In this document: positions 29 to 23,037 of the stretch, one piece after another | How positions within the stretch are numbered: the stretch's first letter is position 1 | Layout of the letters: each line of letters begins with the position of its first letter | Origin: an uncultured Gammaproteobacteria bacterium | Lineage (GTDB): Bacteria > Patescibacteriota > Patescibacteriia > UBA10025 > JAHIVO01 | Direction of reading: 5' to 3' | NCBI GenBank assembly: GCA_964549245.1 | Contig: CAZJUO010000005.1 | Coordinates: 1-33,413 of the forward strand | DNA: 33,413 nt | Notes under the pieces: generated by a model | The model's database searches: none | Told to the model about the DNA's origin: nothing | Seen by the model: only the letters and a program-made list of their open reading frames with translations | Position numbers and translations under genes: made by a program

Positions 29-733
29 TTATTTATAAAGTTTCGCGGATAAGATCCCGCGTTTATAGAATATACCAAAAAAGATAATTAGAAAAGACAC
101 CAAGGAAAGCAAATCAGAGGTCAGGGCCGCAAACTGGGTAGTGGCCGTATAATACGCGTAGGCAGTAATCATCAGGAACAACAGGCCAATAGCTATAACG
201 ATCGATCTGGTTTTCACCACCTTATCTTGAGATTGGAAACCCTGGCGAAAAAAGAAAATGGTACTCGGTACGAGGACACCGGCAAATATAACCGTACTAG
301 CAAGGCCTACGATTGGATTGATATTCCAGTTGGTAATGCCGGTCGCTCTATTGTATTCCGGATAATTAAAATAAATGACATTCAACATTACGGCGATGGC
401 CGCTGCTACGACGACAATCCAAAATACCCGCTGAACCCACTGAATATTGATAAAATACACCGTCACCTTGGCGAAAAAAGCCACCGCCACAAATAAAAAT
501 GCCTGCGCCATGACAAAACCGATTCCCAATACCAATGACTGCTCTGGCACCAGAAGCCGCGGCAAAGAAAAACAAAAATAACTAAAAATCAAAGAAAAAT
601 ATCCTTGAGCAAAAAACAACAAAACGATTCTTTTATGATCCGAATCACGGTAAGAAGTGTACAGTTTGTAGCTGCAAAATATGCAGATGATGCTGATTAC
701 TAAATCAATAAGTGGCGTAATAGGCAGTCCCAT
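29..733 (-). CDS. Polytopic (~7 TM) membrane protein, candidate stand-alone sensor partner of the upstream histidine kinase
   Basis: About seven hydrophobic segments in 234 aa; starts 2 nt after the kinase stop, so probably co-transcribed. Confidence 0.7.
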   Translation of the reverse strand: MGLPITPLIDLVISIICIFCSYKLYTSYRDSDHKRIVLLFFAQGYFSLIFSYFCFSLPRLLVPEQSLVLGIGFVMAQAFLFVAVAFFAKVTVYFINIQWVQRVFWIVVVAAAIAVMLNVIYFNYPEYNRATGITNWNINPIVGLASTVIFAGVLVPSTIFFFRQGFQSQDKVVKTRSIVIAIGLLFLMITAYAYYTATTQFAALTSDLLSLVSFLIIFFGIFYKRGILSAKLYK

Positions 734-20415: not shown

Positions 20416-21162
20416 ATGAATTTAACTACCCAATTACAATCCTTTGGTTTAAATAAAAAACAAGCCAGTGTTTACCTGGCCTGCCTAGAATCGGGCCGTA
20501 CTTCTGTTCAAAACATTTCCAAAAAAACCGGTATTAAGCGTACCAGTGTTTATGACCTGGTTACTGGTCTTATTGAACAAGGATTGATTATCCAAACCAT
20601 CAAAGGAAAAAAAAGATTTTTTGTCGCTGAAGATCCCAAAATAATAAAAAAACGTTTAATGCAAAAACAAAATGAATTTGACGAACTACTTCCTGAACTT
20701 CAATCTCTCTATTCCATTCCCGGCCATAAACCAAAAATAGAATATTATGAAGGCATTGATGGCATTAAACAAGTTTTGGAAAAAACATTAACCAGCAAAG
20801 AAAAAGAACTAAAAAGTATTTTACCTTTAAAAGATTTTCTCGATCTGGTCGGTGAAGAATTTTTTCATCATTACACGCAAAAAAGGATTAAACATGGATA
20901 CACCTTGCGCACTATCCGCCCCATAACTAAGGAAATTGCCAGAGCAGTGAAAAAATACCATTGGGGAACAAATAAAAATCAAAAAAGGGAAGTGCGCCTG
21001 GCGCCAAAGTATTTTCAGTTTTCTATGGCTATGTACTTATTTGATAATAAAGTAATCTTAATGTCTTCAAAAAAAGAAATTTTTGCTTTTATAATAGAAT
21101 CAGATGAATTCGCCTATAATCAAAAGGCGTTATTTGAGGTGTTATGGCAGGCGAGTAAATAA
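20416..21162 (+). CDS. TrmB family transcriptional regulator (wHTH + C-terminal effector/PLD-like domain)
   Basis: GLNKKQASVYLACLESG...RTSVYD...L...GL, KPKIEYYEG..GI, FEVLW; promoter TTGACC-17-TACTAT (20357-20385). Confidence 0.9.
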   Translation: MNLTTQLQSFGLNKKQASVYLACLESGRTSVQNISKKTGIKRTSVYDLVTGLIEQGLIIQTIKGKKRFFVAEDPKIIKKRLMQKQNEFDELLPELQSLYSIPGHKPKIEYYEGIDGIKQVLEKTLTSKEKELKSILPLKDFLDLVGEEFFHHYTQKRIKHGYTLRTIRPITKEIARAVKKYHWGTNKNQKREVRLAPKYFQFSMAMYLFDNKVILMSSKKEIFAFIIESDEFAYNQKALFEVLWQASK

Positions 21163-21180
21163 TAGAATTCTATTTTATTC

Positions 21181-21211
21181 AAAAACAGCATCTATTTTGG
21201 ATGCTGTTTTT
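21181..21211. terminator. Bidirectional terminator between trmB and the tRNA locus
   Basis: AAAAACAGCATC / GATGCTGTTTTT. Confidence 0.85.
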
Positions 21212-21263
21212 CACGAGCAGTGGACCCGAGGTGACTCGTTGCGCCCCCGCCTGCCTCTACCTT

Positions 21264-21337
21264 TGGACCGAAGGGGACTTGAACCCCTGACCTCCTCCAT
21301 GCCATGGAGGCGTTCTAGCCAACTGAACTATCGGCCC
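21264..21337 (-). tRNA. tRNA-Ala(GGC), intact, CCA not encoded
   Basis: Full cloverleaf: GGGCCGA/TCGGTCC with G3:U70, anticodon arm CCTCC-ATGGCAT-GGAGG, T-loop TTCAAGT. Confidence 0.96.
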
Positions 21338-21356
21338 AAGAGCAGAGACGGGCAGT

Positions 21357-21395
21357 CATGCCATGGAAGCTCTCTACCAGATGAGCTAGAGGCCC
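21357..21395 (-). pseudogene. 5' half of another tRNA-Ala(GGC)
   Basis: GGGCCTCTAGCTCATCTGGTAGAGAGCTTCCATGGCATG, truncated just after the anticodon loop. Confidence 0.8.
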
Positions 21396-21533
21396 CCATG
21401 AGTGACGGGGTAAGATTGAACTGCGGGCCCGGAACTTATAATAATATTTTTAGATTACTAAAATAGTAATAATAGCTTATCACTATTTTTTTTAATATTC
21501 AAGTTCTTATCAGGCTAACTAAAATTTCTGATC

Positions 21534-22205
21534 TTAATACTTATTACCTTTTAGCTTATCAATGATTTCTTTGGCCGCATCCTTACCACCCAAACCGAAC
21601 GCTAAACCTCCAGCTAATGAAAACATTACTACACAACCAGTAAATAATATTTTCAATAAATCTGGTGCAACTTTTAACTGAACCAGCGCAGCTATAAACG
21701 AAAATATAAATATGGCCCATTTAGTTAATGATGCTAGCAGTTTAGAAGAGGCAATATTTGCTGATTGCGTGGCGTTTTTTACAACCCCGTATAATAAATT
21801 AGCTACTAAAATGCCAATAATTATTATCGCAACAGCGGCAATAACACTCGGCAAGTACCCGATCAAACTGTCAAAAAAGACTGATAGCTGCGTCAGGCCA
21901 AGCACATTGACTGCAGAAGCAATAAACACAATCAAAATAAACCAATAAACAATATTAGAAAATAGCAGTGTCATAGTCGTTTTCAAGCCAGCCTTATGCA
22001 GCAATTGGTGCAATCCAATTTTAGCAGCTATCTCCTCAAACCTGATTACACGTAATATTTTCTTGGCAATAATACTAAAAATCCAGGCAAAAATAAAACC
22101 GGCAAATAGCAGTATTATTGCCAGCAATAAGTTTGGTATAAGGGTAACTAAATCAGCCCAAATTTTTTCAAAGGAATTGGTTACAATTTCAGATGTTCCT
22201 GTCAT
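21534..22205 (-). CDS. Conserved TM-helix repeat protein (CmpX / MscS-associated)
   Basis: Two LIPNLLLAIILL / YLPSVIAAVAII repeats, GLAFGLGGKD; G-rich SD before ATG 22205. Confidence 0.85.
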   Translation of the reverse strand: MTGTSEIVTNSFEKIWADLVTLIPNLLLAIILLFAGFIFAWIFSIIAKKILRVIRFEEIAAKIGLHQLLHKAGLKTTMTLLFSNIVYWFILIVFIASAVNVLGLTQLSVFFDSLIGYLPSVIAAVAIIIIGILVANLLYGVVKNATQSANIASSKLLASLTKWAIFIFSFIAALVQLKVAPDLLKILFTGCVVMFSLAGGLAFGLGGKDAAKEIIDKLKGNKY

Positions 22206-22273
22206 TTTTTCCACCCCCTTTCAATTAATTTCTATAGTAATTATAGCATGTTTTAAACCCAAAAATACAAAAA

Positions 22274-22289
22274 TGTTCCACGTGGAACA
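22274..22289. promoter_or_regulatory. parS centromere-like site (ParB/Spo0J binding)
   Basis: Perfect palindrome TGTTCCACGTGGAACA. Confidence 0.88.
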
Positions 22290-22424
22290 TTTTTTATCTT
22301 TGTATTTTAAACACTTCTTCAAAATTACTGATAACCATACTTCTTAGCTGCGCCTAACAATGTTTAACGCTGAATGTTTGCAGGACGAAAGCTGGTATCT
22401 CTCTACAATGCCAATAAGCATATC

Positions 22425-22526
22425 GCCTGCCATCGACAATGGACCTAGGGAGAATCGAACTCCCGCTCCCGCAATGCGAATGCGGTGTCATACCACTTGA
22501 CTATAGGCCCACAGGCTATGGCAGGC
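22425..22526. repeat. Palindromic element whose arms enclose tRNA-Ala(CGC)
   Basis: GCCTGCCAT (22425-22433) / ATGGCAGGC (22518-22526). Confidence 0.75.
22440..22510 (-). tRNA. tRNA-Ala(CGC), intact, CCA not encoded
   Basis: GGGCCTA/TAGGTCC with G3:U70, CCGCA-TTCGCAT-TGCGG, GGGAG-TTCGATT-CTCCC. Confidence 0.95.
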
Positions 22527-22535
22527 AAGTTTATT

Positions 22536-22552
22536 AATTGAGCTAATGGCCC
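22536..22552 (-). pseudogene. 5' fragment of a decayed tRNA-Ala
   Basis: GGGCCATTAGCTCAATT; a matching anticodon remnant TGGCATTG lies at 22406-22413, on the far side of the palindrome. Confidence 0.6.
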
Positions 22553-22715: not shown

Positions 22716-22787
22716 TGCCCTCGCTAGGAATCGAACCCAGATTTATCCCTTAGGACGGGAGTGTTCTATCCATTGAACTACGAGGGC
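22716..22787 (-). tRNA. tRNA-Arg(CCT), CCA not encoded
   Basis: GCCCTCG/CGAGGGC acceptor, A20 in the D-loop, anticodon loop GTCCTAA, T-loop TTCGATT. Confidence 0.92.
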
Positions 22788-22889
22788 CCGAGCCACAACG
22801 GGCAAATTGCAAATAGTATAAAGAAACGCCTAAACAGCACTTTTTACTTAAACAAGGAAGTTTTTTACGATTTGCTTATTTACACAAAT

Positions 22890-22905
22890 TGTTCCACGTG
22901 GAACA
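22890..22905. promoter_or_regulatory. Second parS site
   Basis: TGTTCCACGTGGAACA, identical to 22274-22289. Confidence 0.88.
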
Positions 22906-23037
22906 AAAATTACCCTATAGGATTGAGTGGTTTTAATAATAAATAGAAAATACTTATTTTTATTACCTTTTTATTATATTAATTATTAATGTACAATTTT
23001 TCTTTGCTAATATTATATCAATATATGTGTCGTATTA

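What the first reader, a model, noticed from the sequence alone, without database searches (positions are those of the whole stretch)
21221..21430. Russian-doll tRNA-Ala locus: three concentric tRNA copies separated by palindromic arms
Seen on the minus strand, in order: 5' end of tRNA-Ala copy 1 (GGGCCCGCAGTTCAATCT, broken in the D-loop); arm CCCCGTC; 5' half of copy 2 (21395-21357, broken just after the GGC anticodon); arm CTGCCCGTCTCTGCTCTT; intact tRNA-Ala(GGC); arm AAGGTAGAGGCAGGCGG; 3' end of copy 1 (CGAGTCACCTCGGGTCCA). The two halves of copy 1 still form a 7-bp acceptor stem with G3:U70. The inner arms extend the intact acceptor stem by 18 positions, 16 of them paired counting G-U. The three copies have different acceptor stems, so this is not simple tandem duplication. 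Established knowledge: integrase att scars usually duplicate 3' ends in direct repeat, which does not give this concentric pattern. Inference: a small palindromic element that carries a complete tRNA in its loop inserts into isotype-matched tRNA genes and replaces the gene it destroys, repeatedly.
Basis: partly seen in the sequence, partly recalled or inferred. Interest (0 to 1): 0.88.

Follow-up and report, generated by a model that had tools for sequence, protein, structure and literature searches.

The report
Nested tRNA genes from palindromic cassettes
In this tiny uncultured bacterium, and in many of its relatives, a working tRNA gene often sits inside a small DNA hairpin that has been inserted into an older copy of the same tRNA gene, giving nested "Russian-doll" tRNA loci that I could not find described for bacteria.

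Summary
Window 21221-21430 (minus strand) holds one intact tRNA-Ala(GGC) flanked by arms that pair at 16 of 18 positions. Outside the arms lies the 5' half of a second tRNA-Ala(GGC), 38/39 identical to the uninterrupted gene at the same locus in a relative. Outside that lie the two ends of a third Ala-like tRNA, which form a 7-bp acceptor stem with G3:U70.

It is one member of a family. The arms end in CTGCCCGCC ... GGCAGGCGG. This pair of ends occurs in 16 of 41 close relatives and 38 of 401 genomes sampled across the phylum (Patescibacteria). Of 24 long copies fetched from distant genomes, 23 carry a whole tRNA. Cutting one cassette out in silico restores an outer tRNA in 13 of 23 of these, and in 3 of 13 in the own family, with the same anticodon wherever readable. 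Insertions lie in the D-loop or the anticodon loop and show no target duplication.

Four relatives have the Ala locus uninterrupted. Outer copies decay and collect more hairpins.

The mobilising enzyme is not identified. RAYT-type and GIY-YIG nucleases are candidates. No RNA data were available. I found no prior description.

The parts
21413..21430 (-). 5' end (18 nt, broken in the D-loop) of the outermost Ala-like tRNA remnant (copy 1)
   Evidence: Read. 14/18 identical to the 5' end of this genome's tRNA-Ala(TGC), the best of 44 tRNAs. Pairs with 21222-21228 as a 7-bp acceptor stem with G3:T70.
21396..21412 (-). 17-nt spacer between copy 1 and copy 2, possibly the decayed left end of an older hairpin insert
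   Evidence: Read. No convincing right-hand partner. In the minimum-energy fold its C-run pairs with a G-run right of the inner cassette. The assignment is inference.
21357..21395 (-). 5' half (39 nt, through the anticodon loop) of a tRNA-Ala(GGC) like the resident gene of relatives (copy 2)
   Evidence: 38/39 and 36/39 identical to the complete tRNA-Ala(GGC) at the orthologous locus in L039 and L034. Also present next to the same cassette in a contig from another sample (X3 record 14).
21338..21356 (-). Left arm of the cassette, with the family's left end (here CTGCCCGTC)
   Evidence: Pairs with the right arm at 16 of 18 positions.
21264..21337 (-). Intact tRNA-Ala(GGC), the cargo of the cassette and the only Ala(GGC) gene found in the assembly
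   Evidence: ARAGORN. Rfam tRNA 64.3 bits, full length 1-71. Genome-wide list.
21246..21263 (-). Right arm of the cassette, ending in GGCAGGCGG(G)
21238..21246 (-). Short G+C-rich stretch that resembles the right end of a second hairpin family found in T-loops
   Evidence: Compared by eye with the T-loop inserts on contigs C56, C85 and C16, which end in GGGCGCGGC followed by GAATCC-type T-loop letters. Inference.
21221..21238 (-). 3' end (part of the T-loop, T-stem, acceptor strand, discriminator) of copy 1
   Evidence: 15/18 identical to the 3' end of tRNA-Ala(TGC), the best of 44 tRNAs. Acceptor pairing shown.
21181..21211 (.). Hairpin followed and preceded by T/A runs, terminator-like on both strands, closing the tRNA locus and the convergent TrmB-like gene
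   Evidence: Read. Not tested further.
22422..22552 (-). Second nested locus of the window: 5' fragment of an Ala-like tRNA broken in the D-loop (22552-22530), left arm, intact tRNA-Ala(CGC) (22510-22440), right arm ending GGCAGGCGA
   Evidence: (arms pair at 14 of 18).

Best explanation
The locus is the product of a family of small palindromic insertion cassettes, about 105-145 bp with cargo, whose ends are CCTGCCCGCC ... GGCAGGCGGG and which is widespread in Patescibacteria.

A cassette is a long stem whose top is a complete tRNA gene. The acceptor stem continues directly into the arms. It lands, without duplicating the target, in a loop of a tRNA gene. The usual site is the 3' side of the D-loop, after GG-Y-AGA. 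Less often it is the anticodon loop; at this locus the site is just after ATGGCATG, which looks like the D-loop site.

The hit gene is cut in two. The cassette's own tRNA, read from the old promoter, takes over. Because these genomes hold one gene per anticodon, only insertions that bring the same anticodon persist. Alternatively, the cassette spreads between lineages by recombination through the conserved outer exons.

The outer halves then decay, are partly kept alike by gene conversion with the inner copy, and collect further hairpins. The new inner gene can be hit again, which gives the layers.

Shown:
- the family and its ends;
- the tRNA cargo;
- clean restoration of outer genes on excision;
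- matching anticodons;
- uninterrupted orthologous loci;
- decay of outer copies.

Inferred:
- that the cassette moves as DNA;
- that movement uses single-stranded hairpin DNA and an HUH (RAYT-type) or GIY-YIG nuclease;
- the order of events at this locus, including a deletion that removed copy 2's 3' half and the middle of copy 1.
For: Focal locus:
- Arms pair at 16/18.
- Copy 2 is 38/39 identical to a relative's intact gene.
- Copy 1 has an acceptor stem with G3:T70.
- Four orthologous loci (IF-2 54-61% identical) carry plain tRNA-Arg(CCT), Ala(CGC) and Ala(GGC) without arms or fragments.

This genome:
- 12 of 45 ARAGORN calls have >= 13 of 18 arm pairs beyond the acceptor stem. Swapped-flank controls give mean 6.9, with 2.2% reaching 13.
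- 24 of 44 tRNAs have a self-like 5' fragment upstream and/or a self-like 3' fragment downstream above every reversed-flank control.
- Nested loci were read for Leu CAG, Leu TAA, Thr CGT, Thr TGT, Thr GGT, Tyr, Arg TCT and Ala CGC.

Family:
- The exact ends occur in 16/41 relatives (control 0) and 38/401 phylum genomes (control 3).
- 23 of 24 long copies from the 20 fetched stretches carry a tRNA, 20 of them in the same orientation.
- Arms pair at 13-17 of 17-19 positions in 12 of 13 cassettes although their inner letters differ.

Excision test:
- An outer tRNA is restored in 13/23 and 3/13 with boundaries within 2 nt of the ends, so there is no target duplication.
- ARAGORN calls the same anticodon in 8 of the 13, and a 4-letter anticodon containing the same triplet in 3.
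- In the other 2, the flank letters printed show the cargo's anticodon split at the junction.

Decay:
- The outer Thr CGT in G009 and the outer Arg TCT in G004 carry point changes and extra hairpins.
- In the closed genome G009, 41 intact tRNAs cover all amino acids. I found no interrupted tRNA there that lacked an intact copy beside or inside it (the nested loci read; no systematic scan for orphan fragments).

Splicing genes: no tRNA-splicing endonuclease and no RtcB were found in this 90.6%-complete genome.

Candidate enzymes:
- A RAYT-type protein scores 117 bits against a cut-off of 80.
- In relatives it co-occurs with the ends: both 13, ends only 3, RAYT only 5, neither 20.
- Across the phylum, 27 of 38 genomes with the ends have a hit against 135 of 363 without.

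Independent samples: contigs from two other metagenomes hold the same junction of copy 2's anticodon loop, left arm and inner tRNA.
Against: - No movement is shown. I saw no identical cassette at two unrelated sites and no empty/filled polymorphism within one population.
- At the focal locus copy 2 lacks its 3' half and any right arm, so an extra deletion must be assumed. A related contig (X3) shows copy 2 plus the cassette without the copy 1 layer. This does not fit a simple outside-is-oldest order.
- The ends are conserved letter for letter across a phylum. That is unusual for selfish DNA and could mean a host function, such as an RNA processing stem.
- Many outer genes are still intact (16 of 36). 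Some nested loci are shared by different genera: Arg TCT in G000, G004 and G009; Thr CGT in G000 and G009. In G009 the seven outer pieces of Arg TCT are, as I read, identical to the inner gene apart from a one-base boundary ambiguity. This could be gene conversion, but it could also be selection on a used outer gene.
- RAYT genes are not flanked by these hairpins. In G009 they are flanked by a different hairpin, with none of this family within 3 kb. In five hairpin-rich genomes no RAYT hit lies next to a listed copy. 11 of 38 genomes with the ends have no hit.
- 3 of 23 cargos are in reverse orientation.
- Two loci may have outer and inner anticodons that differ (L011; L166).
- Contig C86 has a tRNA-Asn whose only defect is a hairpin in the T-loop, and no intact Asn gene was found in this incomplete assembly.
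- Contigs of the likely source sample do not bridge 21311-21422.
Confidence: 0.6

Rival explanations
1. The hairpins and tRNA-bearing cassettes are intervening sequences handled at the RNA level. The inner tRNA is released by RNase P and a 3' nuclease. The outer tRNA is also matured, either by an unknown bacterial splicing or ligation route or as a two-piece molecule held together by the arms. On this reading the outer genes are alive, and bacterial tRNA genes are interrupted much as in some archaea.
For: - Insertions sit in D-, anticodon and T-loops, including position 37/38 in tRNA-Val(CAC) of three genomes.
- 16 of 36 outer genes are intact after one excision.
- Nested Arg TCT and Thr CGT loci are shared across genera, and in G009 the outer Arg TCT exons equal the inner gene.
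- The tRNA-Asn on C86 is interrupted only by a T-loop hairpin, with no intact copy found.
- The ends are conserved across the phylum.
Against: - No tRNA-splicing endonuclease and no RtcB were found (genome 90.6% complete).
- The arms show no bulge-helix-bulge shape, judged by eye only.
- Other outer copies are clearly decayed, with point changes, lost acceptor pairing and lost halves.
- In the closed genome G009 I found no interrupted tRNA without an intact copy.
- 3 of 23 cargos are reversed.
- Short copies of the same hairpin lie mostly between genes: 8 of 11.
Confidence: 0.12
2. Nothing moves. Extended acceptor-stem helices are a host-encoded pre-tRNA processing feature of this phylum. The flanking fragments come from local duplication, replication slippage at hairpins and gene conversion at each locus.
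For: - Many tRNAs have complementary flanks that are not of the conserved family, for example AT-rich arms at Trp and Ile TAT here, and at Ile, Lys, Thr TGT and Gln in G009.
- The ends are conserved over the phylum.
- Inner and outer bodies are often identical while only the acceptor stems differ (Leu CAG, and the tandem His genes), which points to ongoing gene conversion.
Against: - The same ends flank more than 15 different tRNA species, and also non-tRNA cargo or nothing.
- Two cassettes lie in tandem at one D-loop site in G032.
- Excision is letter-precise.
- The Ala locus is plain in four relatives and in G009, so the state here is a gain.
- Local duplication does not explain why breaks fall at the same loop positions in unrelated tRNAs.
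Confidence: 0.15
3. The driver is homing by the small GIY-YIG nucleases. The nuclease cuts the intact tRNA gene. Repair copies in a module that carries the nuclease gene plus a replacement tRNA or tRNA half. The ORF-less palindromic cassettes are what remains after the nuclease gene is lost, or they ride on the same nuclease.
For: - There are 9 GIY-YIG ORFs in this genome, 6 of them beside tRNAs.
- Relatives of the ORF occur in 36 of 41 genomes, up to 12 copies each.
- In 29 loci from other genomes, 25 have a tRNA within 300 nt and 22 have one directly downstream on the same strand.
- 15 of those 22 have a 5' fragment of the same tRNA 40-70 nt upstream of the ORF, often broken at tRNA nucleotides 35-37 and followed by small G+C hairpins.
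- 5 of 6 copies in G009 lie within 45 nt of a tRNA.
- On C91 the ORF itself lies between 14-nt complementary arms.
Against: - The focal locus has no GIY-YIG ORF.
- The nuclease family is present in 20 of 25 relatives that lack the cassette ends, so it does not track them.
- The ORFs are about 80-100 aa, a bare catalytic domain by Pfam, with no evident DNA-binding domain.
- The ORF modules duplicate only the 5' part and are not nested. They are a related but different architecture.
Confidence: 0.08
4. The nested arrangement is an assembly artefact, made by joining reads from several tRNA-Ala genes of different organisms in the metagenome.
For: - Contigs of the likely source run (X1) match exactly only at 21000-21310 and 21423-21700, and none bridges the middle.
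- tRNA words are shared among organisms.
Against: - A 243-nt contig from another sample spans 21255-21395 with 7 differences.
- A second contig shows the same anticodon-loop to left-arm joint.
- The same architecture occurs at many other loci of this genome, in a single-contig 1.31-Mb relative, and in 18 further genomes.
- The outermost joint (21396-21422) alone lacks independent support.
Confidence: 0.03

Closest known systems
REP / REPIN elements with RAYT (REP-associated tyrosine transposase)
   Same: - Short G+C-rich imperfect palindromes, several per genome, mostly between genes.
- A long hairpin made of two inverted ends with a spacer.
- A RAYT-type gene is present (NF047646, 117 bits) and co-occurs with the ends.
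- REPIN papers were seen as search listing and abstract starts only (PMC3116915, PMC3337134).
   Different: - The spacer is a complete tRNA gene, and the insertion sites are tRNA-gene loops.
- Only about 10 exact copies per genome here, not hundreds.
- The ends are shared across a phylum rather than a species group.
- RAYT genes are not flanked by these hairpins.
- No GTAG-type head was seen by eye.
- The features of classical REPs are recalled, not tested.
Integrative elements (phages, islands) that insert into tRNA genes and carry a copy of the displaced part
   Same: The mobile DNA targets a tRNA gene and brings what is needed to keep a working gene, leaving a displaced fragment behind. The GIY-YIG modules seen here do this with the 5' part.
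   Different: - Known elements are kilobases long, use an integrase, and duplicate the 3' part as direct repeats.
- Here the unit is about 110 bp with no integrase nearby, carries a whole tRNA, and sits inside the old gene, so fragments lie on both sides.
- The known behaviour is recalled.
Free-standing GIY-YIG homing endonuclease SegB in the tRNA gene cluster of phage T4
   Same: A GIY-YIG nuclease gene sits among tRNA genes and promotes inheritance of itself and the neighbouring tRNA region (PMC2330249; search listing and abstract start only).
   Different: - SegB is a phage protein that acts in co-infection.
- Here there are many small chromosomal copies, each directly upstream of one tRNA with a displaced 5' fragment.
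- Activity is untested.
Archaeal (and red-algal) interrupted, split and permuted tRNA genes with bulge-helix-bulge introns
   Same: Interruptions in D-, anticodon and T-loops, several per gene, including position 37/38. Complementary sequences flank the break (reviews PMC4090602 and PMC3978253, and preprint 10.64898/2026.10.13.758758; search listings and abstract starts only).
   Different: - This is a bacterium: bacterial IF-2, and an initiator tRNA that reads as C1 opposite A72 (my reading).
- No splicing endonuclease and no RtcB were found.
- The insert holds a full tRNA of the same anticodon, and outer genes decay.
Hairpin intervening sequences of bacterial 23S rRNA removed by RNase III without re-ligation
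   Same: An extended stem-loop replaces a loop of a structural RNA gene, with sporadic distribution among relatives.
   Different: Those sit in rRNA, carry no gene, and leave a working fragmented rRNA. Whether RNase III cuts the arms here is unknown. Recalled knowledge, no call.
Mobile G+C-rich palindromic clusters of A+T-rich yeast mitochondrial DNA
   Same: Small G+C-rich hairpins spreading in an A+T-rich genome, often nested in one another (PMC4478555; search listing and abstract start only).
   Different: An organelle system with no tRNA cargo, and not aimed at tRNA loops.

Membership tests
REP/REPIN-RAYT system | Many copies of a short imperfect palindrome, mostly extragenic | tested here: inconclusive
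   10 exact-end copies in this genome, and up to 12 in others. 8 of 11 short copies are intergenic. Copy numbers are far below classical REPs.
REP/REPIN-RAYT system | A RAYT gene in the same genome | tested here: met
   The C98 ORF scores 117 bits on NF047646 (cut-off 80). Co-occurrence in relatives: 13 both, 3 ends only, 5 RAYT only, 20 neither. Across the phylum: 27/38 against 135/363.
REP/REPIN-RAYT system | RAYT gene flanked by its own REPs (recalled criterion) | tested here: not met
   No hairpin of this family lies beside the RAYT genes of G000 or within 3 kb in G009, where a different hairpin flanks them. No RAYT hit lies next to a listed copy in five hairpin-rich genomes.
IS200/IS605-type elements and their ORF-less derivatives | No target duplication; strand-specific insertion next to a short target | tested here: inconclusive
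   No duplication: excision within 2 nt of the ends restores tRNAs. The 5' flank usually ends in A after GG-Y-AG. No strict target word was found.
IS200/IS605-type elements and their ORF-less derivatives | Separate subterminal hairpins at the left and right ends (recalled criterion) | tested here: not met
   The two ends pair with each other, not each with itself.
Classical MITE (cut-down DDE transposon) | Terminal inverted repeats plus target-site duplication | tested here: not met
   Inverted ends are present, but there is no duplication at the 16 sites restored by simple excision.
Archaeal-type protein-spliced tRNA introns | Splicing endonuclease (PF01974) and RtcB-type ligase (PF01139) encoded | tested here: not met
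   0 matches each in the 90.6%-complete genome. The control genomes matched.
Archaeal-type protein-spliced tRNA introns | Bulge-helix-bulge motif at the exon-intron joints | not tested
   Looked at by eye only. The arms form a continuous helix with one C-A mismatch. No motif search was run.
Homing-endonuclease module (GIY-YIG) | Nuclease ORF inside or beside the interrupted target gene | tested here: not met
   No ORF of this family lies in 21200-21450. The feature is met at other loci: C91, C2, C33, C65, and 22 of 29 loci in relatives.
tRNA-targeting integrative element | Integrase gene and direct repeats of the tRNA 3' end bounding a kilobase-scale island | tested here: not met
   The neighbours are a TrmB-like regulator, an MscS-like membrane protein, bactofilin, a lipid kinase and IF-2. 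The fragments lie on both sides within 210 nt.

The most novel reading that the evidence does not exclude
Patescibacteria have true interrupted tRNA genes. On this reading the hairpins, including those that enclose a whole tRNA, are removed from the transcript by a bacterial pathway unrelated to the archaeal endonuclease. One locus would then yield both the inner and the re-joined outer tRNA. tRNA genes would themselves behave as mobile hairpin cargo that inserts loop-into-loop. This would be the first protein-dependent tRNA splicing system, and the first nested tRNA-in-tRNA expression unit, in bacteria.
Probability: 0.12. Interest if true: 0.95.

Novelty: new variant of a known kind. Interest (0 to 1): 0.8.

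Why it matters
tRNA genes are thought of as compact, stable targets for mobile DNA, not as its cargo. Here a 110-bp palindrome appears to carry a whole tRNA gene and to overwrite the resident gene of the same anticodon. This happens again and again, in a phylum with one gene per anticodon and about 1-Mb genomes.

Consequences if the reading holds:
- It would be a new way for tRNA genes, and their acceptor-stem variants, to move between lineages.
- It would explain why tRNA loci break assemblies and confuse tRNA finders in these genomes. ARAGORN called chimeric "tRNAs" at two loci.
- It gives a natural record of insertion, decay and gene conversion.
- It offers candidate structure-specific nucleases (RAYT-type, small GIY-YIG) with defined DNA substrates to test.
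- If the outer genes turn out to be used, it would show intron-like processing of bacterial tRNAs.

Tried and rejected
- A search for bacterial SSU rRNA in the genome found nothing. The organism was placed through IF-2 relatives instead.
- No RNA holder was listed for the stretch, so expression and processing could not be examined.
- Logan contigs of the best DNA holder do not bridge 21311-21422. This shows nothing either way, because short shared tRNA words break such contigs.
- The Rfam tRNA model on the 39-nt half alone gave no tRNA hit.
- nhmmer with a profile of this genome's tRNAs found only 11 fragments and missed the focal ones. I used self-similarity and reading by eye instead.
- Rfam found no known RNA family around the short "empty" hairpins. 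I could not show that they interrupt other structural RNA genes.
- An archaeal origin, my first guess from the G+C-rich tRNAs in A+T-rich DNA, was rejected. Reasons: bacterial IF-2, a bacterial-type initiator tRNA by my reading, a terminator-like hairpin with a T run read by eye, and no splicing enzymes.
- A strict target word for insertion was sought by eye in the flanks and not found, beyond a purine, mostly A, before the left end.
- Adjacency of RAYT genes to the hairpins was looked for and not found.
- Nine literature searches and one look inside a paper (PMC12455944, passages only) found nothing on tRNA-carrying palindromic cassettes, nested bacterial tRNA genes, or GIY-YIG-tRNA modules in Patescibacteria. 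Supplementary files were not seen, and subscription journals are not in the library.
- Not done: structure prediction, complex prediction, homologue searches in the large protein collections, and phage or plasmid searches. They did not bear on the question.
Full report
WHAT IS AT THE COORDINATES

Read on the minus strand, 21430-21221 holds the following, in order.
- 18 nt that look like the start of a tRNA-Ala, broken in the D-loop.
- A 17-nt spacer.
- 39 nt that are the 5' half of a tRNA-Ala(GGC), up to one base past the anticodon loop.
- A 19-nt arm.
- A complete tRNA-Ala(GGC): ARAGORN; Rfam 64.3 bits, full length.
- An 18-nt arm.
- Nine G+C-rich letters.
- 18 nt that look like the end of a tRNA-Ala.

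The inner arms pair at 16 of 18 positions, starting with base -1 opposite the discriminator. 59 of 100,000 shuffles reach this.

The outermost pieces form a 7-bp acceptor stem with G3:T70. Among the genome's 44 tRNAs both pieces are best matched by tRNA-Ala(TGC), at 14/18 and 15/18.

The whole stretch folds far better than shuffles (z -4.7; 0 of 200 as good).

The Rfam model does not recognise the 39-nt half on its own. Identity to real tRNAs does (next section).

ORGANISM AND ORTHOLOGOUS LOCI

The genome is a 1.27-Mb, 120-contig, 43% G+C assembly, 90.6% complete.

It is a bacterium. It has a bacterial IF-2, and an initiator tRNA that, as I read it, has C1 opposite A72.

The best IF-2 relatives, at 61, 61, 59 and 54% identity, are metagenome-assembled genomes. 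Three are titled Patescibacteria group bacterium and one is titled uncultured Gammaproteobacteria.

In all four, tRNA-Arg(CCT), tRNA-Ala(CGC) and tRNA-Ala(GGC) lie upstream of infB as here. They are plain genes there, without arms or fragments.

Copy 2 of the window is 38/39 identical to the tRNA-Ala(GGC) of one relative and 36/39 to another. Copy 2 is therefore like the resident gene of relatives, and the nested state is derived.

THE LOCUS IS NOT UNIQUE

Overlapping or doubled ARAGORN calls elsewhere led to the same architecture at other loci: Leu CAG, Thr CGT, Arg TCT, Leu TAA, Thr TGT, Thr GGT, Leu CAA, and a four-layer tRNA-Tyr. It also occurs at the window's own tRNA-Ala(CGC).

- 12 of 45 ARAGORN calls have at least 13 of 18 paired positions beyond the acceptor stem. 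Swapped-flank controls have mean 6.9, with 2.2% reaching 13.
- 24 of 44 tRNAs have a self-like 5' fragment upstream and/or a self-like 3' fragment downstream above every reversed-flank control. Some of these reflect neighbouring paralogues (Val, His).
- I could read the outer anticodon region at 11 loci: Leu CAG, Thr CGT, Arg TCT, Leu TAA, Thr GGT, Tyr, Ala GGC, Ala TGC, Ser CGA, Met, Ile TAT. At all 11 the letters present agree with the inner anticodon. In several the break falls inside the anticodon, so only part of it is seen.

A FAMILY WITH CONSERVED ENDS

Many arms end in CTGCCCGCC on the left and GGCAGGCGG on the right. These pair with one conserved C-A mismatch and one T-G pair.

Distribution:
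- In this genome the exact pair of ends occurs 10 times: with a tRNA inside, with about 10-20 nt inside, or with about 80 nt of other sequence inside. Several more copies, the focal one among them, differ by one letter.
- The exact pair with 5-130 nt between occurs in 16 of 41 relatives (reversed-pattern control 0).
- It occurs in 38 of 401 genomes drawn evenly from the phylum (control: one hit in each of 3 genomes).

I fetched 20 stretches from 18 of these genomes.
- 24 long elements were found, and 23 hold a tRNA.
- 20 of those are in the same orientation relative to the ends.
- The cargo species are Arg, Ala, Cys, Lys, Thr, Val, Gly, Ile, Leu and Met.

Across 13 cassettes of the own family the arms pair at 13-17 of 17-19 positions in 12 of them, although the inner arm letters differ. 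The hairpin itself is therefore maintained.

INSERTION SITES AND EXCISION TEST

I removed one cassette in a script and gave the joined flanks to ARAGORN.
- A tRNA spanning the joint was restored in 13 of 23 cases phylum-wide.
- It was restored in 3 of 13 cases in the own family.
- Boundaries were within 2 nt of the ends, so there is no target duplication.

Anticodons of the 13 restored outer tRNAs:
- 8 were called with the cargo's anticodon.
- 3 were called with a 4-letter anticodon containing the same triplet.
- 2 were called differently. The flank letters printed nevertheless show the cargo's anticodon at the joint.

Sites:
- Most breaks are after tRNA nucleotides 19-25, at the 3' side of the D-loop, with a left flank ending GG-Y-AGA.
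- Val(CAC) in three genomes is hit between loop positions 37 and 38.
- Asn in G011 and Ile in one genome are hit inside the anticodon.
- At the focal locus the left flank ATGGCATGA resembles the D-loop site. This last point is inference.
- In G032 two cassettes, one with a tRNA and one without, lie in tandem in the same D-loop of an otherwise intact tRNA-Arg(CCG).

Possible mismatches of outer and inner anticodon are L011 and L166.

FATE OF THE OUTER COPIES

Outer copies range from intact (Leu CAG and Leu TAA here) to decayed.
- The outer Thr CGT of this genome has lost acceptor pairing and has a hairpin in its T-loop.
- In G009 the same locus has point changes and a replaced T-arm.
- In G004 the outer Arg TCT has several substitutions.
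- Outer copies also collect other small G+C hairpins of at least three further families, in D-, anticodon, variable and T-loops.

Inner and outer bodies can be identical while the acceptor stems differ. In Leu CAG 54 nt are identical. The tandem His genes share 58 identical nt.

The outer Thr CGT of this genome matches its own inner gene rather than G009's. This points to gene conversion (inference).

I fetched the single-contig relative G009 whole (1,309,938 bp).
- 41 intact tRNAs cover all amino acids.
- 19 of the 41 have self-like flank fragments.
- Arg TCT, Thr CGT, Asn and Thr GGT sit in hairpin cassettes.
- I found no interrupted tRNA there without an intact copy.
- Its outer Arg TCT is cut into seven pieces by six inserts. 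As I read, the pieces equal the inner gene. This is striking, and it is the best single argument for the rival reading that outer genes are used.

ENZYMES

No tRNA-splicing endonuclease and no RtcB were found.

RAYT-type:
- A 175-aa ORF on C98 matches NCBIfam's REP-associated tyrosine transposase at 117 bits (cut-off 80). A second copy lies on C44.
- Among 41 relatives the counts are: both features 13, ends only 3, RAYT only 5, neither 20.
- Among 401 phylum genomes, 27 of 38 with the ends have a hit at E <= 1e-8, against 135 of 363 without. Relatives are not independent, so this is a lead only.
- Against a direct link: the RAYT genes are not flanked by these hairpins, and 11 genomes have the ends without a hit.

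GIY-YIG:
- Small GIY-YIG ORFs (Pfam PF01541) number 9 here, 6 of them beside tRNAs.
- They occur in 36 of 41 relatives.
- Of 29 loci in other genomes, 25 have a tRNA within 300 nt, and 22 have one directly downstream on the same strand.
- 15 of those 22 have a 5' fragment of that same tRNA 40-70 nt upstream of the ORF.
- These modules look like insertions that carry a copy of the tRNA's 5' part. They are a second way of overwriting a tRNA gene, related in logic to the cassettes.

READS

No RNA run holds the stretch.

Contigs of the likely source run match exactly on both sides but do not bridge 21311-21422.

A 243-nt contig from another sample spans 21255-21395 with 7 differences. It covers copy 2, the left arm, the inner tRNA and part of the right arm. 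Beyond copy 2 it continues into A+T-rich sequence, so that organism seems to lack the copy 1 layer.

A third sample shows the anticodon loop of copy 2 joined to a canonical left end.

MECHANISM I COMMIT TO (ABOUT 0.6)

A DNA cassette made of a long stem capped by a tRNA gene inserts without duplication into single-stranded loops of tRNA genes. It supplies the replacement tRNA from the old promoter.

Selection, or recombination through the conserved exons, leaves only same-anticodon nests. Outer halves then decay, convert and collect hairpins. Repeated hits give layers.

At this locus:
- A cassette hit the resident Ala(GGC) (copy 2) next to its anticodon loop.
- The copy 1 remnants and the T-loop-type end show that other events, including a deletion, also shaped the locus. 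Their order is not resolved.
- The enzyme is open. A RAYT-type HUH nuclease is my first guess (about 0.3 of the total), and the GIY-YIG nucleases are second.

COMPARISON WITH WHAT IS KNOWN, AND NOVELTY

The cassettes work like REPIN-type palindromic elements, and like tRNA-targeting elements that restore their target. They fail defining features of each family that I could test; see the membership table.

Nine literature searches found no description. Supplements and subscription journals were not visible.

I rate this a new variant of a known kind, with high interest.

LIMITS

- Everything rests on sequence comparison.
- Several anticodon and boundary readings were made by eye from printed sequence.
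- ARAGORN calls on joined flanks can be off by a base.
- The own genome is incomplete.
- Relatives are unnamed handles and are not independent.

Noticed in passing
window 22422-22552 (-): A second nested locus. An intact tRNA-Ala(CGC) lies between arms of the same family (left CTTGCCTGCC..., right ...GGCAGGCGA). It is preceded by a 23-nt 5' fragment of an Ala-like tRNA broken in the D-loop. No outer 3' part is recognisable.
   Followed up: partly
window 22788-22806 (-), beside tRNA-Arg(CCT) 22716-22787: A decayed left arm (TTGCCCGTT...) lies directly upstream of tRNA-Arg(CCT), with only partial pairing to the downstream flank (11 of 18). It is probably an old cassette.
   Followed up: no
window 22889-22906 and 22273-22290; also L033, L034, L035, L039 and G009 near the same tRNA genes: A perfect palindrome, TGTTCCACGTGGAACA, recurs upstream of or between these tRNA genes in the window and in five relatives. 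It may be a conserved protein-binding site or promoter element.
   Followed up: no
G000 contigs C91 1007-1249, C2 48771-49082, C33 11528-11854, C39 6726-6974, C47 1361-1612, C65 46-321; 29 loci in relatives (L124-L152): Small GIY-YIG nuclease genes sit directly upstream of tRNA genes, often with a displaced 5' fragment of the same tRNA and small G+C hairpins before the ORF. Counts: 22 of 29 loci have the tRNA directly downstream, and 15 of those 22 have the fragment. 5 of 6 copies in closed genome G009 are within 45 nt of a tRNA.
   Followed up: partly
G000 contig C86, about 60-165 (-): tRNA-Asn(GTT) has every stem intact but carries a roughly 25-nt hairpin (CTTGCCCCGCC...GGCGGGGTGA) in place of part of the T-loop. 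No intact Asn gene was found in this 90.6%-complete assembly. Phe, Ile(GAT), Ser(TGA), Pro(TGG) and Gln(CTG) genes were also not found.
   Followed up: partly
G000 contig C4 3840-4021 and contig C7 15517-15700: Paired tRNA copies are identical over 58 nt (His) or 54 nt (Leu CAG) but differ at most acceptor-stem pairs, with full complementarity kept. This is either gene conversion that stops short of the ends, or selection for different acceptor stems.
   Followed up: no
G000 contig C30 7418-7517; G010 C14 15940-16038: The same hairpin ends enclose an approximately 80-nt non-tRNA cargo that is conserved between two genera. No Rfam family matches it.
   Followed up: partly
G000 contigs C7 15517-15603 and C56 2487-2563: ARAGORN calls chimeric 'tRNAs' built from the right arm of a cassette plus the outer 3' part. 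tRNA counts from standard tools are therefore inflated or wrong in these genomes.
   Followed up: yes
G009 749375-749890 and flanks: A RAYT-type gene with an internal stop is flanked on both sides by a different repeated hairpin (CACCCTAAAGGGTG plus shared flanks). This looks like a separate classical REP-RAYT pair in the same lineage.
   Followed up: no
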